Shown in pieces: positions 1,162-46,323 of a stretch of 64,000 nucleotides of DNA. Both the position numbers and the translations under genes were made by a program. Each line of letters begins with the position of its first letter. Position 1 is the stretch's first letter. Location: the sequence record MF158044. One strand, 5' to 3'. This DNA comes from Shigella phage Sf18. A model generated the notes under the pieces. It worked only from the letters and a program-made list of their open reading frames with translations, searched no databases and was not told the origin of the DNA.

Positions 1162-2337
1162 ATGCCAGTAGGTGAAATTCAAATTAGTGCATTGCCTCAA
1201 GCCTCGTTGCCTATTGATTTAAGTGATATCTTTCACCTTAAGCAAGGTATTGAGGATAAACGATGCACACTTGAGCAATTACTTGCTCCACACGCATCTT
1301 TAAGAAATAACCCACACGGTGTTACAAAGGTTCACGTAGAACTTGGTAATGTTGTTAACGCACTCCAATTAGTGGCTGCTAATAACTTGTCAGACGTGGT
1401 TAGTGTTGAAGAGGCTAGGCAGAACCTTAATATTCTATCAAGTGATGAAGTTAATGCTCTTATCCAGAATCACATTAATGACAAGAATAACCCTCACAAC
1501 ACTAACAAGATTCAAGTAGGTTTGTCTAATATTCAAAACTGGACATATTCAAACTCTTACTCTGAAGACGCTGATAAGTATGCTACTGCAAAAGCTGTGA
1601 ATGCTTTATATAGAGCTATCCAGAATAGCTATCCAATCGGTACTATTCATTTGTCAGTTAACCCTGCAAACCCATCTACATATTTACTTTGTGGTGGTAC
1701 TTGGGAGTTAGTTTCTAAAGGAAGGTCTCTTGTCGGTTATGACACAGATACAAGACCTGTAGAATCAGTATTTGGTTCTGCTACTGTAACACTTACACAA
1801 AATAACATTCCAAGTCACACACACTCTGTATTACTAACTGGTGGTGGACACTCCCACAATGCAACAGTAGTAATTTCTAACTTTGACTATGGGACTAAGA
1901 GCACATCAAGTTTTGATTATGGTTCTAAGGCCACAAACGACTCTGGAAGCCACGCTCATAACGTTAATGGTTCTGTAAGCAGTGCTGGTAGTCACAGCCA
2001 CAGGATTCCATTGAGGGGTTCTGACAGGGGTGGTGTGAATGCTATTACGGCAACGGCTGATGCAGGTGTTGGTAATGCGTCATATACAGACTTTGATGGG
2101 GTTCACACACATACCTTCAACGTTAATTCTTCAGTTGGTGGTAACCACTCTCACAGTGTGTATATCGGAGCACATGGACACAGTGTTGCAATTGGTTCAC
2201 ATGGACACTCAGGTACTGTGACAGTTCAATCTTCTGAGCACACTCACTCAGGTACAACTGGTGCATTTGGTGCTGGACAAGCATTTAATATTGAGCAACC
2301 TTCTTATGTTGTATATGTTTGGAAGAGAACTGCGTAA
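1162..2337 (+). CDS. tail fibre protein with His-x-His repeat tip
   Basis: Good SD (GGGAG); N-terminal NPHxxTK.QVGL repeats typical of phage fibres; C-terminal run of HxH motifs (HTHS, HSHN, HAHN, HSHR, HTHT, HSHS, HGHS, HGHS, HTHS); ends WKRTA. Confidence 0.65.
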   Translation: MPVGEIQISALPQASLPIDLSDIFHLKQGIEDKRCTLEQLLAPHASLRNNPHGVTKVHVELGNVVNALQLVAANNLSDVVSVEEARQNLNILSSDEVNALIQNHINDKNNPHNTNKIQVGLSNIQNWTYSNSYSEDADKYATAKAVNALYRAIQNSYPIGTIHLSVNPANPSTYLLCGGTWELVSKGRSLVGYDTDTRPVESVFGSATVTLTQNNIPSHTHSVLLTGGGHSHNATVVISNFDYGTKSTSSFDYGSKATNDSGSHAHNVNGSVSSAGSHSHRIPLRGSDRGGVNAITATADAGVGNASYTDFDGVHTHTFNVNSSVGGNHSHSVYIGAHGHSVAIGSHGHSGTVTVQSSEHTHSGTTGAFGAGQAFNIEQPSYVVYVWKRTA

Positions 2338-8530: not shown

Positions 8531-8830
8531 TTAATCTGCCAGCCTTAAGTTAAAGTTTACACCAAGTTTTGTACAAGCATTAAGCATGTACTCTAAAGAA
8601 ATCTTCTGAGGGTCGTTAATGATATTTGACACACGACTCTGTGAGATTTCACAAACAGTTGCTACTTGAGCCTGAGAAAGTTTTAGCTTCTCAATCTCTT
8701 TAGAGAATCTGAAAGATACAAAGTCTTTCATCTCTTCTATATCCATTGGACAGACATAACTCTCCATTTCAGCCTCTCTATCAGCCTCCCAAGAATCTTG
8801 AGGTGCATATGGGTCAAAGACTTCATTCAT
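8531..8830 (-). CDS. HTH (XRE-like) DNA-binding protein
   Basis: 99 aa; acidic N-terminus then helix-turn-helix-like segment QAQVATVCEISQSRVSNII. Confidence 0.4.
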   Translation of the reverse strand: MNEVFDPYAPQDSWEADREAEMESYVCPMDIEEMKDFVSFRFSKEIEKLKLSQAQVATVCEISQSRVSNIINDPQKISLEYMLNACTKLGVNFNLRLAD

Positions 8831-9026
8831 CTTTCTTTCTCCGTTTTCGAGAAGTGTCTATTAACGAATCAAGATTAGTTGCTCTGACGTTTTCACGAGT
8901 CCCATTAATGTAGTTATCTAAAGACTCTACAACGGTTGCAAAATCATTAGCCCAAACTCTGTAAATAACTACTCCGTCATCATCGACCACTTCACCATAG
9001 TCTGTTCTACAGATGTTCTTCTTCAT
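8823..9026 (-). CDS. hypothetical protein
   Basis: 67-aa ORF overlapping upstream stop; basic C-terminus. Confidence 0.3.
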   Translation of the reverse strand: MKKNICRTDYGEVVDDDGVVIYRVWANDFATVVESLDNYINGTRENVRATNLDSLIDTSRKRRKKDE

Positions 9027-11377: not shown

Positions 11378-12478
11378 CTATTCATAATCTCGTATAACAA
11401 GCCCAACAGGGAACTGTAAAGACCCCTTACGAGTCATCTTCTGGAACTGAACCGTTAAAGGCTTCCCGATAAACTCTTCAGGATGTTCAGCAAGATACTT
11501 TTTCTTCTCGTGTGTAGTTTTCCATGAAACATCTACAAAGACGTTAGGAAGAGTCTCTACAACGAACTTACCATGACCACGTTTATCAGTCTTTACACCA
11601 GTTACTTTAAATTCCTGTGTGTGCATCTTCTTGTGCTTAATCAGGAAGTAAGAGCGATGACCACACTCATAGAACGAATCTGGTGAGATTGACCGATACA
11701 TTGCCCCTTCAAACTTGAGTTTAACCCAGTTGTCATGAGCATTATCAAATTCTTCCCAAGAGTTAACACGGATTGTCTGAACAGGTACAACCCTGCAAGC
11801 ATCACCGAGTTCAACGATTGGTGAATTATCAATAACTTCACGACGCTCAGGCCAAGATTTAGTCTTGTCACAGATATCATACCAGTAGAATTTAAGAAGG
11901 TGACGGTCTGGATTGTCAGCATTCTTAATCATAGATACAATATCTTCCAAGTCCCAACCATGAGCATAAATCTCCCCGTCGAAATCCTCAACATCTTTGT
12001 GCAGTTTCAGCATAAGAAGAACATCAGGAATCAACTCTACAGGAATGTTGTATACCGTGTTCTCACGAGAATATGCCGTAAAACTTTCTGAGTCAGCATC
12101 TCTTGAAATCCTGCAACGAACACCATCAAGTTTAGGTTGAGCATCGGCAGGGAATACCAGATACTTCTTGTGACTTATCTTGGAAGCATCCTGAGCAAGC
12201 TGTACACCAACCTTCTCAACATTCTCTGCTTCAGATTTTGTGTAAGCATATCCTTTACGGTCAACCTGCTTCTTGTACTTAGCAGCAACTTCAAAGAGAG
12301 CTTGCTGTTCAGCATTACGCTCATTCTTTTTACCGATGTTCTTAGGTTCTGCTGTGTACTCTTCAAACATCATCTTGCCATTTTCTTTACCATAAGTTGT
12401 GACGACTTTATCACCTACAGCAACACATGACCAGACGTTGAAAGAACCATCTTTATTTTGTTTGTACAGAATTGTCAT
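11378..12478 (-). CDS. ATP-dependent DNA ligase
   Basis: 366 aa; adenylation motif KLDGVR (KxDG) and downstream nucleotidyltransferase-like blocks. Confidence 0.8.
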   Translation of the reverse strand: MTILYKQNKDGSFNVWSCVAVGDKVVTTYGKENGKMMFEEYTAEPKNIGKKNERNAEQQALFEVAAKYKKQVDRKGYAYTKSEAENVEKVGVQLAQDASKISHKKYLVFPADAQPKLDGVRCRISRDADSESFTAYSRENTVYNIPVELIPDVLLMLKLHKDVEDFDGEIYAHGWDLEDIVSMIKNADNPDRHLLKFYWYDICDKTKSWPERREVIDNSPIVELGDACRVVPVQTIRVNSWEEFDNAHDNWVKLKFEGAMYRSISPDSFYECGHRSYFLIKHKKMHTQEFKVTGVKTDKRGHGKFVVETLPNVFVDVSWKTTHEKKKYLAEHPEEFIGKPLTVQFQKMTRKGSLQFPVGLVIRDYE

Positions 12479-12681
12479 TTACGTTTCCCACCAATTTCTA
12501 CATCAATAACTTGTGTGTCTCCACAAACATCAAACTTATGAATGATATTCTCTACAGTGTAAGTCCAACCATCAATCCTTACCCATTCACCTTCTCGTGG
12601 CACTATTGGGTTACGTTGTGCTACAGTTGTAGTTGAGTGAACAACGTCATACTTATAGATAAAATTTACCAGAACCTGCAT
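12475..12681 (-). CDS. hypothetical protein
   Basis: Start moved to internal Met (MQVLVNF) preceded by GGAGGAT SD; avoids overlap with upstream lipoprotein gene. Confidence 0.35.
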   Translation of the reverse strand: MQVLVNFIYKYDVVHSTTTVAQRNPIVPREGEWVRIDGWTYTVENIIHKFDVCGDTQVIDVEIGGKRK

Positions 12682-12682
12682 A

Positions 12683-12928
12683 TCAATATCCTCCATCAAA
12701 AACTGTGGTGTGTGACTGACTATTCTTCCCATACTTGTAAGAAGTTGTAGTCTGAGAATTTGGGCAGCGAACTACAATAACATCCCTGCTAATGGCATCA
12801 CCATTAAGCTTATAAATCTTGCAGTCTTGCATTTCTGGAGGAAGTCTGTAAGAGGCATCCTTATTCTCATAAGAAGGGTTGCACCCCACCAGTAAGACTA
12901 CTAAAGCTGGTATCAATAATTTTAACAT
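12683..12928 (-). CDS. small lipoprotein
   Basis: 81 aa; signal peptide ending in lipobox LLVGC (MLKLLIPALVVLLVGC). Confidence 0.4.
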   Translation of the reverse strand: MLKLLIPALVVLLVGCNPSYENKDASYRLPPEMQDCKIYKLNGDAISRDVIVVRCPNSQTTTSYKYGKNSQSHTTVFDGGY

Positions 12929-12938
12929 TTTAAACCTC

Positions 12939-13190
12939 TCAATAAAATAAGTCTGAAGCTTTTGAATTTACAGGATTCAAAGAACCTTCGTAATGTTCTT
13001 CATAACCCTCTTGGCAGATATTATACAGTTCTTTGAATCGGGTTTCATCAACTGGTTTAACATCTTTCTTAGCGCATAAGAAGAGATACCAATCATACCC
13101 CAAATCCCTGCACCAAGCCTCTGAGACAAAAGCTATTGATTTGTCTTCGCTCTTGAAGATTGCTAAAGCTTCTTGCTCTTTATTGCTCAC
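12939..13190 (-). CDS. hypothetical protein
   Basis: 83-aa ORF, no recognisable motif. Confidence 0.35.
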   Translation of the reverse strand: MSNKEQEALAIFKSEDKSIAFVSEAWCRDLGYDWYLFLCAKKDVKPVDETRFKELYNICQEGYEEHYEGSLNPVNSKASDLFY

Positions 13191-13323
13191 GATACTCTAC
13201 CTCTCTAAAAGTTTTATGGTAATAGATTTTGTAGTAAGCTATCTCGTTACTTTTAACATTTGTTTTAAGAAGAGTCCAGTCATAACCTTCACCAACTCTT
13301 CCCCAAATGCTATAAAGTTTCAT
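13180..13323 (-). CDS. hypothetical small protein
   Basis: Start moved to internal Met (MKLYSIW) with GGAG SD; the longer track ORF would overlap the upstream gene. Confidence 0.3.
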   Translation of the reverse strand: MKLYSIWGRVGEGYDWTLLKTNVKSNEIAYYKIYYHKTFREVEYREQ

Positions 13324-13501
13324 TAAAGATACTCCATCCAGTTTTCTGCCAAGGTTCCCCCTTGTACCATGCAGCCATTGGGTAACCCATTTCACATACA
13401 ACCTTTCCGTCTTTTATTTCAAAGAACTCATCAGATGTGAAATTTTCATTTCGAACTTTCTTGCCCTGTTTCATAGCTTCGAGAGCTTCTTCGTATGTCA
13501 T
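13310..13501 (-). CDS. DUF2829-like small protein (possible Tad2-like anti-Thoeris sponge)
   Basis: 63 aa starting MTYEEALEAMKQGKKVRN, matching from memory the N-terminal signature of DUF2829/Tad2 proteins; GGAG SD; track start is a TTG extension. Confidence 0.35.
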   Translation of the reverse strand: MTYEEALEAMKQGKKVRNENFTSDEFFEIKDGKVVCEMGYPMAAWYKGEPWQKTGWSIFNETL

Positions 13502-13707
13502 TTTTGGTGTCTCCAAAATTCGATGTCAATAAGTTCCTGTGCAATACTCTTCAGATTCCCTTTCAAGAAAACCTTTTCAGAGTTAGGTAGGCTTGCATTA
13601 TCAATGAGTCTATTCATTCTGTCAAAAAGAGTTTTCTTCCGATTCTTGATAGTCTCTTTTGAAGCACCTTGCATCATGGCAAGATGAGTTCTTCCACGGT
13701 GGCTCAT
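13498..13707 (-). CDS. hypothetical protein
   Basis: 69-aa ORF, ATGA-coupled to neighbours. Confidence 0.3.
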   Translation of the reverse strand: MSHRGRTHLAMMQGASKETIKNRKKTLFDRMNRLIDNASLPNSEKVFLKGNLKSIAQELIDIEFWRHQK

Positions 13708-13904
13708 AGACGTTCACCTTTAAGGTAACCTGTCTTATCCTTGATAATCTTACCTCCAGCAATAAAAATATCAACCTTGCGAAGATTTTCATTAGAAAGC
13801 TTGAGGTGCTTATGGCTACTGCAAATGATGATGCACATAGTCTCAATCTCACTTTGAGAATATCCAGCACATTGCAGTTGAACTTCAATTTCTGAAATAG
13901 TCAT
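13704..13904 (-). CDS. hypothetical protein
   Basis: 66-aa ORF immediately downstream of DNA polymerase. Confidence 0.3.
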   Translation of the reverse strand: MTISEIEVQLQCAGYSQSEIETMCIIICSSHKHLKLSNENLRKVDIFIAGGKIIKDKTGYLKGERL

Positions 13905-13965
13905 ACAAGTCTCCTATACAATATATAGTATAAGGTACTCTTCCATGAGCACCTTGTCAACACTA

Positions 13966-16665
13966 TTAGTGGACTTCAAGCCACGATTTACCAACTTTCC
14001 CTGCACCTGTGACCAATGTCTCTTTTCTTAGCCCAAGGTTCTTAGATGCTTGACCATAATACCAGTCAGTTACTGCTTTCACATCTGCTGTCATGCTCTC
14101 TGGACATTCCCAGCTTGTTTCATCGTGGTAAGCACAGAGTAAGCGAGCACCAATAGCTGGTTTACGACCATTCAACTTCATCAAACCTTCGTCAATCATA
14201 CGACGACATGCAAGGTTGATTGCTTCATTCTGAACTTGTGCTTCTGAACCCATCAGCAAATAGTTCAAGAGTTTGTGTGGAGACTTACACCACAGCCAAG
14301 CCCCAGCAACCTTCACAAAACCACCTTTAGAGATTGCAGCAGTTTTACCAAACACCTCTTCAAGTGCTTTCTTAGTTGCTTTGAAATCAGCTTCCAAGTT
14401 GTCTAACAGTTTCTTAATCTTCGGCAAACGCACAAAGTAAGTCTGCTTAGTCAATGCACCTTCCTGAGTAGTTGCTGCTTTAATTGTCTTGGCAAACTTC
14501 TCATCACCTGCACCGAACAACAAAGCATAGATACCATTCTTAGCTTTCTTACGTCCCTTGCTAATCTCATGAAGAAGATTCTCATCCTGAGTAGCACGAC
14601 AAGTCAAGATATCTTGCTCATCATTAAGGCTGAAGTAGATACTGTTCAGAGTGTGAGCATCAGTCCCTGAGTAAACTACGTACAAATCGTTTTCAGAGTC
14701 GTAACGCAGATACTTGTCAATCTCTGGATTCAGATACTGGTCAAAGTGTTTACAGTAGTATCTTCCATCCTCTTGACGGACAAACTCAATCTCTTCTTTA
14801 CCCTCTGTTACCGCTTTGGTGAAGTCTTTATCACCCATGAAGTTACAGAGTAGTACAAGCTGTGCAGAGTTCATATCAACAGATACTACGTTGGTTCCCT
14901 CTTCACAAATCCACACTGCCCTCATTGGCTCACCGTACACGGCAGCACCAGAAGGTACGTTTACAATACCATACTGAGTCATACGTCCAGTAGAAGTACC
15001 AAACACCATTGCACCTGCACTCAAACGACCATCTGGACGAATCTGGTTCAGCCAACCTTTCTCATCATCCTTTGAGTTCTCAATAGTCCTGCGTCGGTGC
15101 ATCAAAGTATAGTACTTCGCAATCTTCTGTCCAAGCTCACCTTCGATTGTATCATAAGAAGACTCTGTAAGCTTTGGTGAAGTCCTAATCAAGCAAGGCT
15201 CAAGCACATCTGTGTACTTCTTAACAGACCAGTTATGCTCAATGTAATAGACACCTTCATGCTCAATGTAATTCAATCCACAACGTTCAACCATCTCATC
15301 CCACTTAGGATGTTTGCGAATCATCTTTTTGTTGTCTTTGAATCTGCAAACCTTGATAGGACGACCATCAGAATCTTTTTTATAGTTCCAATCATCAGGA
15401 ATCCAACCAACGGATTTTAAGTAATCCTTCACCACAGCTACCTGAGTCATTCGTGAAACTTCAAACTCAATTGGTGTAAATGGTGCATCAATCAAACCAG
15501 TGTAGCGACTAGACTCTAACTCAAAGTGATTAACAACGTGAACGTTGTAGTACTTCACAGTTTTCACAGTCTTAACTGGCTTCCAATCTTTACACTTCTT
15601 GCCAATCTTCTCATTCAGTTCATTACAAACTGCACGAGCATCTTTCATTGCTACAAAACCTTCAGGGTACTCTTCTTTTGTGACCGTGTTAGTTGGAGTG
15701 TAGCAGTTGCGCTTCTCAACATTAAAAATCTTTGTGGTTGGCTTACCATATGGCTTGATAGGGTACTGCTTCAACTCACCTTCACGCATCTGTTCACGAT
15801 ACTTTGTCTTAGGGTACTTGGTAATCCTTTTTAAACCGTCAACGTGACCAAATGTATCTACATACTCGTTCCAAGACTTGGCAAATTCTTCACCTGTAAC
15901 TTTACCTTTTGTCTTAATAGTTGGTGGAAGGTGTGGTTCAACCTCAGCAGCCAACTCATTAGTTAACTTGTCAAGCTCTTTAACGTGGAACTGCATAAGT
16001 TCTACATCAGCTTTCCAACCGTTGATAGCTTGCTGACTCATCCAGAAAGATGTTTCTTTAGCTCGCATGTAGGTTTCATAAGTGTCAACACCACACTTCT
16101 TAAGCTTGAGGTACTCATTATCAAGAGCACGTTTAGTTTTGGCGTTAATCTTAATATCTTCTACAACACGAGTAAGAATCTCTGCATTCCAGACACCCCA
16201 CTCTTCAATCTCTGGTTTACGAACACCAACACGAGCACCCCATGCAGCCAAACCATGAGCACCTTTGTAACCTTTTGGTGTAGGTCTATCCATCCACTGT
16301 ACGCGAGATTGGATAAGTGAATCCTGAAAGAAGTCACTCCAAGGCTTGCACTTAGGATTCTCAAAGTTCCACAGGTCAGGTGCAATGTGATTAAACACCC
16401 ACCAGTCATAACCAAGACCATTGTGGATACAAAGACGTTTAGCTTTCAGTGCAAACTCAACACCTTCACGCAGACCACCTTTGATGTATTTTGTATACTT
16501 GTGACCAAGAATAGGCTCATCAGTGAACACCCACACAGCAGGTTCATCACTGTCATCTTTATAGTCTGCGAAAGCCATTACGTGTGCTTTTGTAAACTCA
16601 AGGAGCAACCCATCAGTTTCTGTATCACCAACCAAATGTAATTTTTCGAAATCTACATTGTCCAT
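13966..16665 (-). CDS. DNA polymerase, family A, with 3'-5' exonuclease domain
   Basis: 899 aa; Exo I motif DTETDG; pol motif A (VDMNSAQL), motif B (KKAKNGIYALLFGAG), motif C (YHDE). Confidence 0.9.
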   Translation of the reverse strand: MDNVDFEKLHLVGDTETDGLLLEFTKAHVMAFADYKDDSDEPAVWVFTDEPILGHKYTKYIKGGLREGVEFALKAKRLCIHNGLGYDWWVFNHIAPDLWNFENPKCKPWSDFFQDSLIQSRVQWMDRPTPKGYKGAHGLAAWGARVGVRKPEIEEWGVWNAEILTRVVEDIKINAKTKRALDNEYLKLKKCGVDTYETYMRAKETSFWMSQQAINGWKADVELMQFHVKELDKLTNELAAEVEPHLPPTIKTKGKVTGEEFAKSWNEYVDTFGHVDGLKRITKYPKTKYREQMREGELKQYPIKPYGKPTTKIFNVEKRNCYTPTNTVTKEEYPEGFVAMKDARAVCNELNEKIGKKCKDWKPVKTVKTVKYYNVHVVNHFELESSRYTGLIDAPFTPIEFEVSRMTQVAVVKDYLKSVGWIPDDWNYKKDSDGRPIKVCRFKDNKKMIRKHPKWDEMVERCGLNYIEHEGVYYIEHNWSVKKYTDVLEPCLIRTSPKLTESSYDTIEGELGQKIAKYYTLMHRRRTIENSKDDEKGWLNQIRPDGRLSAGAMVFGTSTGRMTQYGIVNVPSGAAVYGEPMRAVWICEEGTNVVSVDMNSAQLVLLCNFMGDKDFTKAVTEGKEEIEFVRQEDGRYYCKHFDQYLNPEIDKYLRYDSENDLYVVYSGTDAHTLNSIYFSLNDEQDILTCRATQDENLLHEISKGRKKAKNGIYALLFGAGDEKFAKTIKAATTQEGALTKQTYFVRLPKIKKLLDNLEADFKATKKALEEVFGKTAAISKGGFVKVAGAWLWCKSPHKLLNYLLMGSEAQVQNEAINLACRRMIDEGLMKLNGRKPAIGARLLCAYHDETSWECPESMTADVKAVTDWYYGQASKNLGLRKETLVTGAGKVGKSWLEVH

Positions 16666-24056: not shown

Positions 24057-24272
24057 ATGTTTAATAAAATCAAAAATGACCATGTTTCTAAAATCCAGAG
24101 TGGCGTAGCAGCACTGAAGGAAACTATCAGCAAAGCTAAGTCAGCTACAGAAGCTGAGATGGATGCTCTGGAATCACAAATTCAACATCTGTTAAGCAAA
24201 CGTGTTGAACTCAAAGAACGAATGGACTATATCGAGTCTCAACAAAAGTTGTTTGAAGATAAGGAGGCTTAA
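24057..24272 (+). CDS. hypothetical coiled-coil protein
   Basis: Start moved to Met after GAGAG SD (MFNKIKN); 71 aa. Confidence 0.35.
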   Translation: MFNKIKNDHVSKIQSGVAALKETISKAKSATEAEMDALESQIQHLLSKRVELKERMDYIESQQKLFEDKEA

Positions 24273-25027
24273 TGTTTAATTCCAGAGAATCCGTAAGAAA
24301 TTGGAATCTACGTTGTGGCAATAATCCAAAAGAACCATACAGCACAGAGTATTGGGAATCACTGAAAAGCCAATCTCTGTGTATGCTTGAAGAAGCTAGA
24401 GAGTTAGTCGCAGCAGTAGAAGCCAAAGACCCTGTTGAGACCCTTGATGCTCAAGCTGATTTACAGTATGTACTTGATGGTTTAATTTTCCTGACACAAC
24501 ATGACCATGATGGTGCTATCAAGGCTGTTTGTGAAAACAACAACCTCAAATACACAGATGACTATCAAGAAGCTCTACAGCGAATGTTTGATATTGAGAA
24601 ACGTACTGGTGATGAATGTTACCTGCGTCAATCAATCATCGAAGGTAAAGAGTGGTTTGCGATTATTCGCAAGTCTGATGGTAAGATTATGAAACAGTCT
24701 AATCTTCCAAAAGTTCAACTTGAAAGTTTTATTGCAGAAGTTGACGCAAAAGAATTATTTGTGGTAACATCTGACACATGCGTTATCTGCCAAGGACTGA
24801 TTGGAAGTCTTGGTAGTCTTGGCATTAAAATCTTTTCTAAAGTTGAACCAATCTCTTCAAAAGCAGATAAAGATTTCTGCCGTGAGAATGGATTATGGCT
24901 TGCGGATATTGTGTACTATGATGGTGAGAAGTTCCATGTAACCTCATATCCGAAATTGAATTATGATGCAATCAACCTCAAGCAGTGGTTGAAAGGAGTC
25001 GGTTATAATGGATTCACAGAACATTAA
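24272..25027 (+). CDS. hypothetical protein, N-terminal MazG-like nucleotide pyrophosphohydrolase fold (tentative)
   Basis: 251 aa; segment EEARELVAAVE...DLQYVLDGLIFL...NNNLKY resembles the EExxE...D helical signature of MazG-type NTP-PPases. Confidence 0.3.
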   Translation: MFNSRESVRNWNLRCGNNPKEPYSTEYWESLKSQSLCMLEEARELVAAVEAKDPVETLDAQADLQYVLDGLIFLTQHDHDGAIKAVCENNNLKYTDDYQEALQRMFDIEKRTGDECYLRQSIIEGKEWFAIIRKSDGKIMKQSNLPKVQLESFIAEVDAKELFVVTSDTCVICQGLIGSLGSLGIKIFSKVEPISSKADKDFCRENGLWLADIVYYDGEKFHVTSYPKLNYDAINLKQWLKGVGYNGFTEH

Positions 25028-35017: not shown

Positions 35018-35899
35018 ATGAAAACTACTATTCGAGTTCTACTTAATTCAAATTCCAAAGGTTCTCATCAAGAGACCTTCAACATTATCCAGTTCCCTTC
35101 TGGGGAGATTGGTGGTAACTTCTCAGAAGACTTAGTAGACTTTGCTGAACATGCTGCTGGTAAGATTGAAAACGTAATATTCACTGTACAAGGTTATGAC
35201 AAAGACACACTCTTTGCATTGGCTATGGCTAAAGAGGCTATTGACCGTTTGATTCCTCAGAAAGCAACCATGAAAACTGTTCTTTTTGGATTCTTACCAA
35301 ATGCTCGCTATGACCGTCACATGTTTAAAGGCGATTCAGCAGCACTTAAAGTCTTTGCAAATCTTGTAAATGCTATGGGGTTTGATGCAGTATGTGCTCT
35401 GGATACTCACAGTAATGTAGCAGAGAACTTGTTTAAGTGCTTCTACAACATCCCTCAAAAAGAGGCAGCAGTCCACTTTGCAAGTGACCCACGCATTGAT
35501 TACTTAGTGGCTCCAGATGCAGGTGCAGCTAAGAAGACTGAAGAGGCTGCTAAAGAGGTTGAGAAACCTTATATCACAATGGCAAAGGTACGAAACCTGA
35601 AAACTGGTGAAATCACTGGTATGCGAATCCTTGATGATGTAGACTTAACAGGTAAGACTGTTATGATTCTGGATGATATCTGTGATGGTGGTCGAACCTT
35701 TATCGAGGCTGCAAAGTATCTTCGTGAAGCTGGAGCAGAACGTGTAGAGCTTTATGTTACTCATGGGATTTTCTCTAAAGGTGTTGAAAATCTTCTTGAC
35801 AATGGCATCGACCATATCTACACTACAGACTCACTAGGGGATGAAAAAGACCGTGGTCTTTCCCACTTCTCACAAGTGACAGTAGCAAATATTGAATAA
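35018..35899 (+). CDS. ribose-phosphate pyrophosphokinase-like protein (Prs family; candidate ADPR-pyrophosphokinase)
   Basis: 293 aa; two PRTase-type lobes with phosphoribosyl-binding loop (VMILDDICDGGRT); directly upstream of NadV-like gene. Confidence 0.75.
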   Translation: MKTTIRVLLNSNSKGSHQETFNIIQFPSGEIGGNFSEDLVDFAEHAAGKIENVIFTVQGYDKDTLFALAMAKEAIDRLIPQKATMKTVLFGFLPNARYDRHMFKGDSAALKVFANLVNAMGFDAVCALDTHSNVAENLFKCFYNIPQKEAAVHFASDPRIDYLVAPDAGAAKKTEEAAKEVEKPYITMAKVRNLKTGEITGMRILDDVDLTGKTVMILDDICDGGRTFIEAAKYLREAGAERVELYVTHGIFSKGVENLLDNGIDHIYTTDSLGDEKDRGLSHFSQVTVANIE

Positions 35900-35943
35900 C
35901 AACTTTAGGGGCTGAAAAGCCCCACTTTGAGAGAGATAAAAAG

Positions 35944-37761
35944 ATGACTAAATCAATCTATGCAGTACCAGCAGGTCTTAATGCAGATGCTTATAAAGCG
36001 GGTCATATCTATCAGTATCCAGATGCTACACAGTATCTTATGTTGAACTTAACACCTCGTGGAGATAAATGGTTTAACTCTCCGTTAGAGATTGATGGTG
36101 TTGTAGCTTTTGGTATTCAGCGTTTTGTAAAAGACTATCTGGTAGACCACTGGAATGCAACGTTCTTTGAACGTGATAAGAAAGAAGCCATTGACGAAAT
36201 CTTGGAAATCATGAATGGTGTCCTTGGTGCAGATGCTATTGGTCGTCAACATTGGGAAGAACTTCATGACTTGGGTTACCTGCCTGTTGAAGTCTACTCT
36301 GTAGAGGAAGGTACAATTGTCCCTATGCGTGTCCCGATGATTGTCTTCAAAAACACTGTAGAAGGATTCCATTGGGTAGCTGGTTATCTTGAAGATGCTT
36401 TCTCTGCTGAAATCTGGAAGGCTTGTACGATTGCAACTATTGCACTGCATTACAAACGTATCTGTAAGCAATGGGCTGATAAGACCTGTGACAATGACTT
36501 CCATTTACCTTGGCAGTGTCATGACTTTGCAATGCGTGGTATGTCTGGCTTCACAGATGATGCGTTTAACGCAGTAGGTCACCTGACAAGTTTTAAAGGT
36601 ACTGACAGCTTCCCTGCTGTATATACAGCTAAACGTGCATATGGTCAGTTTATGAATGTAGGTGAGATTGGTAACTCTGTCCCAGCTACTGAGCACTCTG
36701 TGATGTGTGCAAACATCTCATGGAACAGTCTTAACAAAGAGGTAAGTGATTGGCATCTATCGCATTCTGACAACTTACTTGATGCAATGCGTTGGCGTGG
36801 TGAGGTAGAAACTTTCCATCGCCTTCTGACAGAAGTTTACCCAACTGGTATTGCAAGTGCCGTATCAGATACTTACAACTTCTGGCGTACTGTTACACAG
36901 ATTCTGCCAGAGCTACGTAATGTAATTCTGAATCGTGATGGTAAGTTGGTAATTCGTCCAGACTCTGGAGACCCTGTTCACATTGTTACAGGTTACAAAG
37001 CCATTGAATGGGAAACTGCTAAGTCAATGTTCTATAAGCACATGAAAGAGCTTGCACCGAACAATACACATCTGCATGACACAATCTTGAATTGTGAAAT
37101 GTCTGATATTGGCTTTGGGTTCTCTGCTTGGCTAATCTCTGAAGGTTATGAGATGGTTGTTGATAAAGAAGATTTTGAATCTGCTGATACAATCAACCTT
37201 ATTACTGCTCAGAAGACTGGACAGTTTACTGTGAAGCGTATGCTGACAGCAGAAATTGACGGAGCTATCCACACGCTGTATAACATCTTTGGTGGCACTG
37301 TTAACTCCAAAGGGTACAAAGTACTGGATGAGCACATTGGGCTAATCTACGGTGATTCTATCACTCTGGAAAGGGCTAATGATATTCTGTCACGTCTTGC
37401 TGATAAAGGTTTTGCAAGTTCTAACGTAGTGTTTGGTGTAGGTTCATACACCTATCAGTACCTGACTCGTGACACCTTTGCATTTGCTGTTAAAGCAACT
37501 CTTGCACAGATGGATGGTCAAGAAATTATGCTGGCTAAAGACCCTAAAACTGACAGCGGTCTTAAGAAGTCTGCTTTTGGTGGAGTTGTCCCTATGTGGG
37601 ATGGTGACAAGCTGGTAGCTGTAGATGGTTTTGGCTTTGCAGAGTTTGAAGGTGCAATTGACAATTGTCATAGTGCTTTGAAACTGGTATTTAGCAACTC
37701 GCAACCTTATGGTTACGTTAACCTGCGTGATGTTCGAAATACTATTGACAAGCAACTTTAA
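35944..37761 (+). CDS. nadV: nicotinamide phosphoribosyltransferase family protein (NadV/Nampt-like)
   Basis: 605 aa; Nampt-like N-terminus (AVPAGLNADAYKAGHIYQYP) and conserved core (GDSI, VFGVGSY blocks). Confidence 0.8.
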   Translation: MTKSIYAVPAGLNADAYKAGHIYQYPDATQYLMLNLTPRGDKWFNSPLEIDGVVAFGIQRFVKDYLVDHWNATFFERDKKEAIDEILEIMNGVLGADAIGRQHWEELHDLGYLPVEVYSVEEGTIVPMRVPMIVFKNTVEGFHWVAGYLEDAFSAEIWKACTIATIALHYKRICKQWADKTCDNDFHLPWQCHDFAMRGMSGFTDDAFNAVGHLTSFKGTDSFPAVYTAKRAYGQFMNVGEIGNSVPATEHSVMCANISWNSLNKEVSDWHLSHSDNLLDAMRWRGEVETFHRLLTEVYPTGIASAVSDTYNFWRTVTQILPELRNVILNRDGKLVIRPDSGDPVHIVTGYKAIEWETAKSMFYKHMKELAPNNTHLHDTILNCEMSDIGFGFSAWLISEGYEMVVDKEDFESADTINLITAQKTGQFTVKRMLTAEIDGAIHTLYNIFGGTVNSKGYKVLDEHIGLIYGDSITLERANDILSRLADKGFASSNVVFGVGSYTYQYLTRDTFAFAVKATLAQMDGQEIMLAKDPKTDSGLKKSAFGGVVPMWDGDKLVAVDGFGFAEFEGAIDNCHSALKLVFSNSQPYGYVNLRDVRNTIDKQL

Positions 37762-45334: not shown

Positions 45335-45527
45335 TTTCTGCACTAAGTGTTCTGTTGAGATGTTTGGAAAAGACACAGGGGACTTAAAAGGCCTCTTTAC
45401 AAAAGCAGAGTTTGAAGCTGGTTCAGCAATGCCAGTAATCTGTGAAGGTTGTGGTGCTTTATGGGTAGACCATGAAGGTAACCGAGTTAAACCATCTGAA
45501 GATAACGAACGTTGGGAGCATTACTAA
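45327..45527 (+). CDS. small zinc-ribbon protein
   Basis: 66 aa with CxxC...CxxC (CTKCS...CEGCG). Confidence 0.35.
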   Translation: MADFCTKCSVEMFGKDTGDLKGLFTKAEFEAGSAMPVICEGCGALWVDHEGNRVKPSEDNERWEHY

Positions 45528-45528
45528 T

Positions 45529-46323
45529 ATGGGTATCGTAAAAATTATTAAAGGTGATATCTTTAAAGACTTTGATGGTAAGAAATTTGATATCATTGGT
45601 CACGGTTGTAACTGCATGAACTTGATGGGTGCAGGTATTGCAGCAACAATTGCTAAACGCTACCCAAAAGCTTATGAAACTGACGCTGAAGTTTATGCTA
45701 CAGTAGGTGGTGAAAATCATAACCCTAAGCATCTAATGCTTGGTAACATCTCTGTAGCACGTTTTAAGCAGGGTCGAATTGCTAACCTTTACACTCAGGT
45801 TATCACTGGCAAAGATGCACGATACAACGCCTTAGAAGCAGCTTTACAGCGTCTTAACAACTACTGTAAAGTTAATCAACTTAAGAAAGTTGGGCTTCCG
45901 ATGATTGGTGCAGGGATTGGTGGTCTTGATAGCATGGCTGTACTGTCCATTATCAACCAGACTATGAAGGATGTTGACGTTTATATGTATGTCTATGAAG
46001 ATAAGATGTACAGTCAGTTGACTAGTCCTGTTACTGGTTGGGAGAACTTCAGTGAGCCTCAATACTTTGATGGTGTTGCTGTGGTAGGCAAGGATAAAGT
46101 TACCCTCAAGGTGAAGCGTAATGGCAAGGTACACACCAGTTACCCTCCGGTTGAGAAGTACAATCGAAGTAACGCTCAAGTTACCCACCCGTTACAAGGT
46201 CACCACCACAGAGCGGTAACGTTTAGCGATGATGCAAGTGTATATATCAATGCGACTACAGAAGAGTTTGCAGAAGATTATATCACACATGAAAACGTAA
46301 ACTATGTTGAAGCACGTAACTAA
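45529..46323 (+). CDS. macro-domain protein (ADP-ribose binding/hydrolase family)
   Basis: Start at Met (MGIVKIIKGDIF); macro signatures GDIF, DIIGHGCNCMNLMGAGIAATI, VGLPMIGAGIGGL; C-terminal 120 aa unassigned. Confidence 0.55.
   Translation: MGIVKIIKGDIFKDFDGKKFDIIGHGCNCMNLMGAGIAATIAKRYPKAYETDAEVYATVGGENHNPKHLMLGNISVARFKQGRIANLYTQVITGKDARYNALEAALQRLNNYCKVNQLKKVGLPMIGAGIGGLDSMAVLSIINQTMKDVDVYMYVYEDKMYSQLTSPVTGWENFSEPQYFDGVAVVGKDKVTLKVKRNGKVHTSYPPVEKYNRSNAQVTHPLQGHHHRAVTFSDDASVYINATTEEFAEDYITHENVNYVEARN

What the first reader, a model, noticed from the sequence alone, without database searches (positions are those of the whole stretch)
13310..13501. Possible Tad2-like (DUF2829) small protein in the early leftward operon
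The 63-aa ORF begins MTYEEALEAMKQGKKVRN, which matches my recollection of the N-terminal signature of DUF2829 proteins, a family that includes Tad2, a phage sponge for Thoeris signalling molecules. The ORF has a GGAG ribosome-binding site and is coupled to its neighbours. With the Prs/NadV pair this would give two layers of protection against NAD+-targeting immunity. The match is short, the protein is shorter than typical family members, and the call rests on memory of the motif.
Basis: inference. Interest (0 to 1): 0.5.

Follow-up and report, generated by a model that had tools for sequence, protein, structure and literature searches.

The report
Miniature Tad2-fold phage accessory protein
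This small phage gene is real and encodes a stripped-down version of the Tad2 fold that other phages use to soak up bacterial alarm molecules, but it belongs to a separate, untested branch that lacks Tad2's known ligand-binding residues, so its target is still unknown.

Summary
The 63-aa ORF at 13310..13501 (-) is real. It has a GGAG ribosome-binding site and ATGA coupling to the gene upstream. It is Sf17_gp72 of a Mooglevirus and evolves under purifying selection (dN/dS 0.08-0.17). Homologues occur in 461 phage records from at least six phage groups.

The protein nevertheless belongs to a distinct large clade (1775 representative clusters) with its own signature. The gcADPR-contacting residues of Tad2 (W25, N26, S76, T78, D79) are not conserved.

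The gene behaves as an accessory gene. It is absent from the near-identical phage Sf14 through a clean 311-bp indel, and in T5-like phages it sits in the first-injected pre-early region.

The most likely function is an oligomeric sponge for an unidentified immune signal. Anti-Thoeris activity is unproven.

The parts
13310..13501 (-). Coding sequence of the 63-aa mini-Tad2-fold protein (equivalent to Sf17_gp72, PHROG 3474); the stop codon is included.
13511..13514 (-). GGAG ribosome-binding site, 9 nt upstream of the ATG. It lies inside the 3' end of the upstream ORF.
   Evidence: Read directly from the sequence.
13498..13501 (-). ATGA overlap: the start codon of this gene overlaps the TGA stop of the upstream 69-aa ORF (13498..13707). 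This is translational coupling, and it is also the left junction of the indel relative to phage Sf14.
13469..13495 (-). Codons for helix alpha1 (residues 3-11, EEALEAMKQ). This is the segment most similar to canonical Tad2. In Tad2 this helix mediates tetramerisation.
   Evidence: Secondary structure of the model. hhalign confident block. Role of alpha1 in Tad2 from 10.1101/2023.05.01.538930.
13427..13447 (-). Codons for the beta1-beta2 loop (residues 19-25, ENFTSDE). It carries the family-invariant F21, T/S22 and E25. Its position is equivalent to the W25-N26 ligand loop of SPO1 Tad2.
   Evidence: Column frequencies. Alignments. Ligand residues of Tad2.
13334..13369 (-). Codons for the C-terminal aromatic segment (residues 45-56, WYKGEPWQKTGW), including the short helix 50-53. 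Its position is equivalent to the W73...D79...W85 segment (alpha3) of Tad2.
   Evidence: The alignment has low confidence in this part.
13187..13497 (-). 311-bp presence/absence cassette holding this gene plus the downstream 47-aa ORF (13180..13323, PHROG 2381). It is missing from Shigella phage Sf14, whose flanks are 97.5% identical, and it is bounded by (A/G)TGA junctions.

Best explanation
The ORF is a genuine accessory phage gene, patchily distributed and moving between phages as a single gene. It encodes a minimal version of the Tad2/DUF2829 fold: helix alpha1, a three-stranded sheet, a short helix and a final strand. The variable beta2-beta3 insertion of canonical Tad2 is reduced to a two-residue hairpin.

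It is a distant homologue of Tad2 and belongs to a separate large clade with its own signature: A6, M10, G13, K15, H/N18, F21, T/S22, E25, E37, G39, W51, G55, W56.

By analogy with every characterised protein of this fold, it most likely assembles through helix alpha1 into a homo-oligomer. It would then sequester a small nucleotide-derived host immune signal in an inter-subunit pocket built from the beta1-beta2 loop (F21/T22/E25) and the C-terminal aromatic segment. That would silence a signalling defence system early in infection.

The ligand is unknown. Because the polar gcADPR contacts of Tad2 are not conserved, it is probably not bound in the canonical gcADPR mode.

Shown here: gene reality, purifying selection, fold, distant homology, accessory behaviour. 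Inferred only: oligomerisation, ligand binding and anti-defence role.
For: - The gene is real and constrained.
- The only Pfam family seen is PF11195, for the query (E 3.7e-5) and for 28 of 143 diverse family representatives, with no rival family.
- A family profile hits solved Tad2 chains collinearly at both termini (SptTad2 8wjd, E 0.02).
- hhalign gives 89-90% probability and E about 2e-6.
- BFVD neighbours include 60-63-aa proteins annotated DUF2829/Tad2-like.
- The most conserved residues of the clade fall in the loop and segment that form the ligand pocket in Tad2.
- Accessory and anti-defence-like behaviour: the gene is the only one shared between loci of different phage families. It is removed by a precise 311-bp indel in Sf14. 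It is present in only about 38 records, whereas its flanks occur in 260. In T5-like phages it lies in the first-step-transfer terminal repeat next to the T5.015 homologue.
- The Tad2 family is documented to bind very different ligands in different members: gcADPR, His-ADPR, N7-cADPR, cGG/cGAMP and cUMP/cCMP.
- Natural tandem duplications of the domain (P0127, P0219) fit a functional unit of two or more copies.
Against: - No ligand, oligomer or phenotype was tested, or could be tested, with these tools.
- The Pfam score is just under the gathering cut-off, and confident sequence alignment is limited to the first 23-32 residues.
- Canonical gcADPR contacts are not conserved. W25 becomes F21 and N26 becomes T22. 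The S76-Q-T78-D79 segment has no equivalent. W45, the putative W73 equivalent, is W in only 23% of the broad family.
- The insertion that forms the cyclic-dinucleotide pocket in HgmTad2, and helix alpha2 that forms the V-shaped dimer in SPO1 Tad2, are both absent.
- The invariant residues include two glutamates (E25, E37) and the protein is acidic (pI 4.8). This is not the positively charged pocket typical of nucleotide sponges.
- None of the fusion partners seen in 143 representatives is another known sponge domain, unlike canonical Tad2, which is often fused to Acb4 or Sequestin.
Confidence: 0.45

Rival explanations
1. One reading: a bona fide Tad2 that sequesters the type I Thoeris signal 1''-3' gcADPR (3'cADPR). 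Together with the NAD+-rebuilding pair in the same genome, it would give two layers of protection against Thoeris and NAD+ depletion.
For: Tad2 fold and distant homology. An aromatic residue is retained at the W25 position (F21 in 96-97% of the family) and there is a W at the putative W73 position in this protein. A Prs-like + NAPRTase-family pair is present at 35018..37761, and that architecture is NARP1, which counters type I Thoeris.
Against: N26, S76, T78 and D79 of SPO1 Tad2 have no conserved equivalents. In HgmTad2, the combined substitutions W21A/N22A and S90A/T92A/D93A were used as gcADPR-site mutants. The score is below the Pfam cut-off. Canonical and mini profiles barely detect each other's sequences, with a best score of 21.9 bits. 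Even canonical-clade members such as ModTad2 do not bind gcADPR.
Confidence: 0.12
2. The fold is used here to bind a macromolecule rather than a small signal. The target would be an RNA or other nucleic acid (as AcrIIA7, a Tad2-fold tetramer, binds tracrRNA) or a host protein or ribosome-associated target. The protein would then block a host function or defence by occlusion.
Against: The window protein has no basic tail and is acidic (net charge -3, pI 4.8), which argues against direct nucleic-acid binding. The anti-CRISPR activity of this fold is disputed. The Enterobacterales hosts of these phages are not known to carry type II CRISPR-Cas (general knowledge). No conserved neighbouring gene suggests a partner protein.
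Confidence: 0.2
3. A small accessory protein with a function unrelated to immune evasion, such as modulation of host metabolism or phage replication, or a catalytic rather than sequestering role using the conserved H/N18-E25-E37 cluster. In this reading the Tad2 fold is merely a reused scaffold.
For: The function of the whole clade is untested: PHROG 3474 and all neighbouring genes are 'unknown function'. There is a distinct invariant acidic signature not seen in Tad2. The gene sits between the DNA polymerase and ligase genes. Precedent exists for sponge-like small oligomers turning out to be enzymes (Acb5).
Against: Every characterised member of the fold is a counter-defence protein. The patchy distribution, the single-gene mobility and the pre-early location in T5-like phages are typical of counter-defence genes. 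Spatial clustering of H18, E25 and E37 could not be checked because no coordinates were available.
Confidence: 0.2
4. A chance ORF or a decaying remnant with no function.
For: The ORF is very short. It is absent from close relatives such as Sf14 and has a replaced N-terminus in phage vB_SflM_004 (P0008).
Against: dN/dS is 0.08-0.17. Identity is 40-60% across unrelated phage families. There are 1775 representative clusters. The fold prediction is confident. An RBS and coupled start are present.
Confidence: 0.01

Closest known systems
SPO1 Tad2 (gp34.65; PDB 8SMD-8SMG, 8WJE), the founding Thoeris anti-defence 2 sponge
   Same: Same core fold and order of elements: alpha1, beta sheet, short C-terminal helix, last strand. 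Foldseek TM 0.71. Similar N-terminal motif: EALEAMKQGKKV versus EALEVLKQGMQV. An aromatic residue at the W25 position, and a C-terminal 'W...GW-x-I' versus 'W...DW-x-I'. Both are small, acidic, phage-encoded proteins.
   Different: 63 versus 89 aa. The beta2-beta3 loop with helix alpha2 (the V-dimer interface) is replaced by a two-residue D-G turn. The gcADPR contacts N26, S76, T78 and D79 are not conserved. Its own invariant E25, E37 and G39 are absent from Tad2. Oligomeric state and ligand are unknown.
HgmTad2 = AcrIIA7 (PDB 8KBI-8KBM, 8WJC)
   Different: HgmTad2 (104 residues in the chain) has a long insertion between beta2 and beta5 that forms the cGG/cGAMP pocket, and it keeps the W21/N22 + S90/T92/D93 gcADPR site. 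Both are missing here. AcrIIA7 is also reported to bind tracrRNA through basic groove residues, whereas the window protein is acidic.
ModTad2 (PDB 9EIB), His-ADPR and cUMP/cCMP sponge
   Different: ModTad2 has the extended region after beta2 that creates the extra pocket. The window protein has none.
Pfam PF11195 (Tad2-like / DUF2829), including its shortest members (72 aa)
   Same: It is the only Pfam family detected. Short canonical members also lack the alpha2 loop. 60-63-aa viral proteins annotated DUF2829 are structural neighbours.
   Different: The score is 24.6 bits against a cut-off of 25, and only profile positions 1-40 of 73 are matched. Canonical short forms keep the R22, GWNGKN, MKTAD and PWLASQTDVLAEDW motifs; this clade has none of them.
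PHROG 3474 / PHROG 22208 (unknown function)
   Same: Direct membership: E 3e-33 to PHROG 3474. PHROG 22208 is the 147-aa form with the basic-tail extension.
   Different: These families carry no functional annotation, so membership gives a name but no function.

Membership tests
Pfam PF11195 Tad2-like (DUF2829) | Whole-protein HMM score at or above the curated gathering cut-off (25 bits). | tested here: not met
   24.6 bits, E 3.7e-5, only profile positions 1-40 of 73 matched. 0 of 116 close homologues carry a precomputed PF11195 hit. 28 of 143 diverse representatives hit it at E<=0.01. The miss is narrow: 0.4 bit.
Tad2 / DUF2829 fold superfamily | The Tad2 protomer fold: N-terminal helix packed on an antiparallel sheet, followed by a short C-terminal helix and a terminal strand. 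| tested here: met
Tad2 / DUF2829 fold superfamily | Detectable sequence homology by profile-profile comparison. | tested here: inconclusive
   hhalign gives 84-90% probability and E 2e-6 to 7.5e-6, confident over only 23-32 N-terminal columns. The family profile hits SptTad2 at E 0.02 with collinear N- and C-terminal stretches. This supports homology but is below the 90-95% level usually taken as secure.
Tad2 gcADPR sponges (SPO1 Tad2, HgmTad2) | Conserved gcADPR-contacting residues: W25, N26, W73, S76, T78, D79 (SPO1 numbering). | tested here: not met
   The equivalents are F21, T22, W45 and then K47-G48-E49-P50. Across the broad clade, position 45 is W in only 23% and the S-x-T-D motif is absent. 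The C-terminal residue equivalences rest on a low-confidence alignment.
Tad2 sponges | Homotetramer of two V-shaped dimers, with pockets at the protomer interfaces. | not testable with these tools
   Only monomer prediction was available and no coordinates were returned. Helix alpha1 (the tetramer interface) is retained, while helix alpha2 (the dimer interface in SPO1 Tad2) is absent.
Tad2 sponges | Tight binding and sequestration, without cleavage, of an immune signalling nucleotide; inhibition of Thoeris, CBASS or Pycsar in vivo. | not testable with these tools
   This needs biochemistry and plaque assays. No paper in the searchable library reports a test of this clade.
Phage counter-defence accessory genes (generic) | A small gene with patchy presence among close relatives, mobile as a single gene, and located in early or pre-early regions. 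| tested here: met
   311-bp indel relative to Sf14. 38 records hold the gene against 260 for its flanks. It is the only gene shared between loci of different phage families. In T5-like phages it lies in the FST terminal repeat, and T5 itself lacks it.

The most novel reading that the evidence does not exclude
The clade is a previously unrecognised, very widespread 'mini-Tad2' family. It has 1775 clusters at 50% identity and is present in Ounavirinae, Vequintavirinae, Stephanstirmvirinae, T5-like, T4-like and Chaseviridae phages of Enterobacterales. It would have re-tooled the Tad2 pocket (F21/T22/E25/E37 in place of W/N/S/T/D) to capture, or to cleave via an H/N-E-E cluster, an immune signal for which no sponge of this kind is known. 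The recurrent basic or SEC-C tails would tether it to a cellular site.
Probability: 0.2. Interest if true: 0.7.

Novelty: new variant of a known kind. Interest (0 to 1): 0.45.

Why it matters
Tad2-family sponges are among the most versatile phage counter-defences known. Different members neutralise Thoeris types I, II and IV, CBASS and Pycsar.

A 63-aa minimal version that is common in therapeutic-type coliphages and in Shigella, Salmonella and Klebsiella phages, yet is annotated everywhere as 'hypothetical', would extend that arsenal if it is a sponge. It would also define the smallest functional unit of the fold.

Its altered pocket residues make it a good candidate for finding a new ligand specificity. 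The natural Sf17/Sf14 presence/absence pair offers a ready-made isogenic test.

If it is not a sponge, that shows fold-based transfer of 'Tad2' annotation is unsafe for this clade.

Tried and rejected
- phmmer of the single protein against PDB sequences gave only chance hits (LIM domains, E>0.3). Only the family profile reached Tad2 chains.
- The first word-index homologue search found just 11 close relatives. An alignment seeded with tblastn-derived phage homologues was needed to widen it.
- A global hhalign alignment was unreliable (17.8% probability), so residue equivalences beyond about residue 32 are tentative.
- Reciprocal HMM searches between the mini and canonical sets were near noise (best 21.9 and 14.9 bits). 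The two are separate families at the HMM level.
- NCBIfam has no model for either the window protein or SPO1 Tad2.
- Neighbouring small ORFs gave no Pfam hits and only 'unknown function' PHROGs. No conserved partner gene was found across phage families.
- TadIV-1 (T4 vs.3) was considered as an alternative identity and rejected. It is a two-helix dimer restricted to Straboviridae.
- The AFDB50 fold library was unavailable.
- Oligomer modelling was not possible. The structure tool predicts single chains, accepts only window or the search for homologous proteins sequences, and returns no coordinates. The natural tandem-domain proteins (P0127, P0219) were therefore not modelled.
- The promoter scan was not enriched over shuffles and found no terminators, so it gives no evidence on expression timing.

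Full report
**1. Where the window comes from and what the ORF is**

The region 12000..16000 is 99.8% identical to Shigella phage Sf17 (Ounavirinae, Mooglevirus). The ORF at 13310..13501 on the minus strand corresponds to Sf17_gp72, annotated 'hypothetical protein'. It lies in a leftward block of small genes between the family-A DNA polymerase (13966..16665) and the ATP-dependent DNA ligase (11378..12478).

- The ATG is at 13501.
- GGAG is at 13514..13511, 9 nt upstream.
- The ATG overlaps the stop of the upstream 69-aa ORF as ATGA.
- The start of the downstream 47-aa ORF (ATG 13323..13321) lies inside the 3' end of this gene, 8 nt upstream of its TAG stop.

The 6.6-kb block contains no terminator-like site, and promoter-like matches are not enriched over shuffles. 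This fits one long transcription unit but does not establish early timing.

**2. Is it a real gene?**

Yes.
- tblastn finds the protein in 461 phage records, 451 of them covering at least 80% of its length. They include Ounavirinae, Vequintavirinae, Stephanstirmvirinae, T5-like Epseptimavirus, T4-like Jiaodavirus and Gualtarvirus, and Chaseviridae.
- An exhaustive profile search of 1.84 billion representative proteins finds 1775 clusters at E<=1e-3 and 395 at E<=1e-10.
- Five Ounavirinae copies give pairwise dN/dS of 0.08-0.17, with dS up to 1.5.

**3. Sequence relationship to Tad2/DUF2829**

- Pfam gives a single hit, PF11195 (Tad2-like). It has E 3.7e-5 and 24.6 bits, 0.4 bit below the curated cut-off of 25, and it covers only profile positions 1-40 of 73.
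- None of 116 homologues from the large protein collection carries a precomputed PF11195 annotation. Of 143 diverse representatives, 28 hit PF11195 at E<=0.01, and no other family competes.
- A profile of the family hits solved Tad2 chains. SptTad2 (8wjd) scores E 0.02, with collinear matches at both the N- and C-termini.
- I recovered SPO1 Tad2 (gp34.65) from the SPO1 genome and collected its PF11195-annotated relatives. Profile-profile comparisons gave 84-90% probability and E 2e-6 to 7.5e-6. The confident block covers residues 1-23/32, that is helix alpha1, beta1 and beta2.
- Plain HMM searches between the two sets are near noise.

The relationship is therefore a distant one between two separate families. 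It is not ordinary membership.

**4. Structure**

With a 90-sequence alignment, AlphaFold2 gives pLDDT 89.9 and pTM 0.71. The elements are helix 3-11, strands 16-18, 27-30 and 33-36, helix 50-53 and strand 56-58.
- In Foldseek against the PDB, the top five hits are all SPO1 Tad2 chains (TM 0.71, probability 0.97). Nothing else is credible.
- In the viral structure library, the neighbours outside its own family include proteins annotated DUF2829/Tad2-like, some only 60-63 aa long.
- Canonical PF11195 proteins also exist in 72-aa forms that lack the alpha2 loop.

The small size is therefore not an objection. The fold assignment is the strongest result of this study.

**5. How it differs from characterised Tad2 proteins**

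- *Ligand contacts.* In SPO1 Tad2 the gcADPR ligand is held by W25, N26, W73 and D79, with T78, S76, D67 and H71 contributing. In HgmTad2 the gcADPR site was probed with the combined W21A/N22A and S90A/T92A/D93A substitutions, which did not affect cyclic-dinucleotide binding. In the canonical alignment these residues are invariant or nearly so.
- *Equivalent positions in the window protein.* These are F21, T22 and W45, followed by K47-G48-E49-P50. Across the broad clade, F21 (96%) and T/S22 (69%) are conserved. Position 45 is W in only 23%, and there is no S-x-T-D motif.
- *The clade's own signature.* It is A6, M10, G13, K15, H18 (N in this protein), F21, E25 (98%), an aromatic at position 26, E37 (98%), G39, W51, G55 and W56. 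The most conserved residues lie in the beta1-beta2 loop and the C-terminal aromatic segment. These are the elements that build the pocket in Tad2.
- *Missing insertions.* The beta2-beta3/5 insertion is reduced to a two-residue D-G turn. In SPO1 Tad2 this insertion carries helix alpha2 and the V-dimer interface. In HgmTad2 and ModTad2 it forms the second pocket, for cyclic dinucleotides and cUMP.

My reading is that the same surface is under functional constraint but with different chemistry. That implies a different ligand or binding mode. The C-terminal residue equivalences rest on a low-confidence alignment, because no coordinates were available for a superposition.

**6. Genomic behaviour**

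The gene behaves like an accessory counter-defence gene.
- *Single-gene mobility.* Across nine loci from different phage families it is the only gene shared. Other shared genes were found only between closely related phages.
- *Patchy presence.* Within Ounavirinae, its DNA is found in about 38 records, whereas the flanking polymerase-ligase region is found in 260.
- *Clean indel.* Phage Sf14 has flanks 97.5% identical to the window, yet it lacks exactly 311 bp (13187..13497). That segment holds this gene plus the 47-aa ORF. The junctions fall at (A/G)TGA, so the neighbouring genes stay translationally coupled.
- *Pre-early position in T5-like phages.* In saus132 and Bas26 the homologue sits in the left terminal repeat, the first-step-transfer DNA that enters the cell first. 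It lies immediately after the T5.015 homologue. T5 itself has an unrelated gene there.

**7. What is known about the fold's functions**

All characterised members are homotetrameric counter-defence proteins with strikingly varied ligands:

| Protein | Ligand or activity |
|---|---|
| SPO1 Tad2 | gcADPR |
| HgmTad2 / SptTad2 | gcADPR plus cGG/cGAMP |
| ModTad2 | His-ADPR and cUMP/cCMP |
| Tad2_71 | N7-cADPR and 3'cADPR |
| AcrIIA7 | tracrRNA (activity disputed) |

No paper in the searchable library links Tad2 to Ounavirinae, Epseptimavirus or Vequintavirinae, or tests this clade. A large survey collected Tad2 homologues by requiring HHpred probability >0.9 to PF11195. This clade sits right at that threshold, so I cannot tell whether it was included.

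**8. Mechanism and rivals**

I rate the explanations as follows.
- *An oligomeric sponge for an unidentified nucleotide-derived immune signal (about 0.45).* It is supported by the fold, by conservation concentrated on the pocket-equivalent surface, by the accessory and pre-early behaviour, by the documented ligand plasticity of the family, and by natural tandem duplications of the domain (P0127, P0219).
- *The specific claim of a gcADPR/Thoeris sponge (about 0.12).* It is weak because the defining contacts are missing.
- *A macromolecule-binding role (about 0.2).* Two things keep it alive: the AcrIIA7 precedent, and the recurrent basic C-terminal tails (KGKGHNKLxKxKKK, SEC-C zinc motif, PWYxxGNKR) plus one peptide-deformylase fusion in longer family members. 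The window protein itself is tail-less and acidic (pI 4.8).
- *An unrelated or catalytic function using the H/N18-E25-E37 residues (about 0.2).* It cannot be excluded.
- *A chance ORF.* This is excluded.

**9. Verdict**

The finding is a new variant of a known kind. It is a minimal, widespread, uncharacterised clade of the Tad2 fold. It is moderately interesting, mainly as a well-defined experimental target with a natural presence/absence pair (Sf17 versus Sf14).

Noticed in passing
window 35018..35899 (+) and 35944..37761 (+): An adjacent Prs-like gene (PF00156/PF14572) and an NAPRTase-family gene (PF04095). This two-gene architecture is the one described as NARP1 (Adps + Namat), which rebuilds NAD+ from ADPR and nicotinamide and counters type I Thoeris, DSR1/2 and SEFIR. 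The Felixounavirus Bas63 copy was used as a query in that paper.
   Followed up: partly
window 45472..46323 (+): A 283-aa protein with a Macro domain (PF01661, E 8e-8). Macro domains bind or hydrolyse ADP-ribose derivatives, so this may be another player in ADPR/NAD+-related counter-defence in the same genome.
   Followed up: no
window 24272..25027 (+): A 251-aa protein with a MazG-like PRA-PH domain (PF01503), equivalent to Sf17_gp87. It is a nucleotide pyrophosphohydrolase-like gene of unknown role.
   Followed up: no
family representatives P0118, P0120, P0136, P0140, P0209, P0072; P0158, P0165, P0200; P0129, P0135, P0151; L009 1477..1920: Longer members of the family carry three recurrent kinds of short basic C-terminal tail: ...YKGKGHNKLxKxKKK, a SEC-C zinc motif CxCGSGxKxKxC, and ...PKPWYxxFGNKRxIY. 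This suggests tethering of the domain to an acidic target such as nucleic acid, ribosome, SecB-like protein or membrane. It remains unexplained.
   Followed up: partly
P0259 (211 aa); P0127 (175 aa) and P0219 (200 aa): One representative fuses the mini-Tad2 domain to a full peptide deformylase (PF01327, E 3e-36). Two others contain two tandem copies of the domain.
   Followed up: partly
window 13187..13497 versus L014 (Shigella phage Sf14) about 1483..1486: A precise 311-bp indel. In Sf14 the ATG of the ATGA junction serves as the start of the gp70 homologue, whereas in the window that gene starts with GTG (13190). The cassette is bounded by the short repeat TGA.
   Followed up: yes
L018 and L019 (phages pEC-M719-6WT.1 and SUSP2) versus window 12939..13190: In Suspvirus-type copies the protein ends ...SIVQDSPKASDLFF. 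The same KASDLF[FY] ending closes the unrelated 83-aa ORF two genes downstream in the window (…NSKASDLFY). This suggests a deletion or recombination scar that fused the mini-Tad2 gene to the 3' end of that ORF.
   Followed up: no
P0008 (Shigella phage vB_SflM_004, 83 aa): In this phage the first 17 residues (helix alpha1) are replaced by 37 unrelated residues, and the rest of the protein is nearly identical to the window protein (96% over the aligned part). It is a chimeric or disrupted copy.
   Followed up: no
L013 7432..7629 (phage saus132) and L003 3001..3201 (Bas26); L015 (T5) 8681..8938: In Epseptimavirus the homologue lies inside the left terminal repeat (first-step-transfer, pre-early DNA), directly after the T5.015 homologue. 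T5 has the unrelated T5.016 at that position.
   Followed up: yes
L002 1492..1686 (Cronobacter phage EspYZU08): The 64-aa homologue is annotated 'major capsid protein' in the GenBank record, which is an evident mis-annotation.
   Followed up: no
window 13625..13597 (-): An 11/12 match to the sigma-70 consensus (TTGACA-17-GATAAT) inside the upstream ORF, about 96 nt before the ATG of the mini-Tad2 gene. Promoter-like matches in the region are not enriched over shuffles, so its significance is unknown.
   Followed up: no
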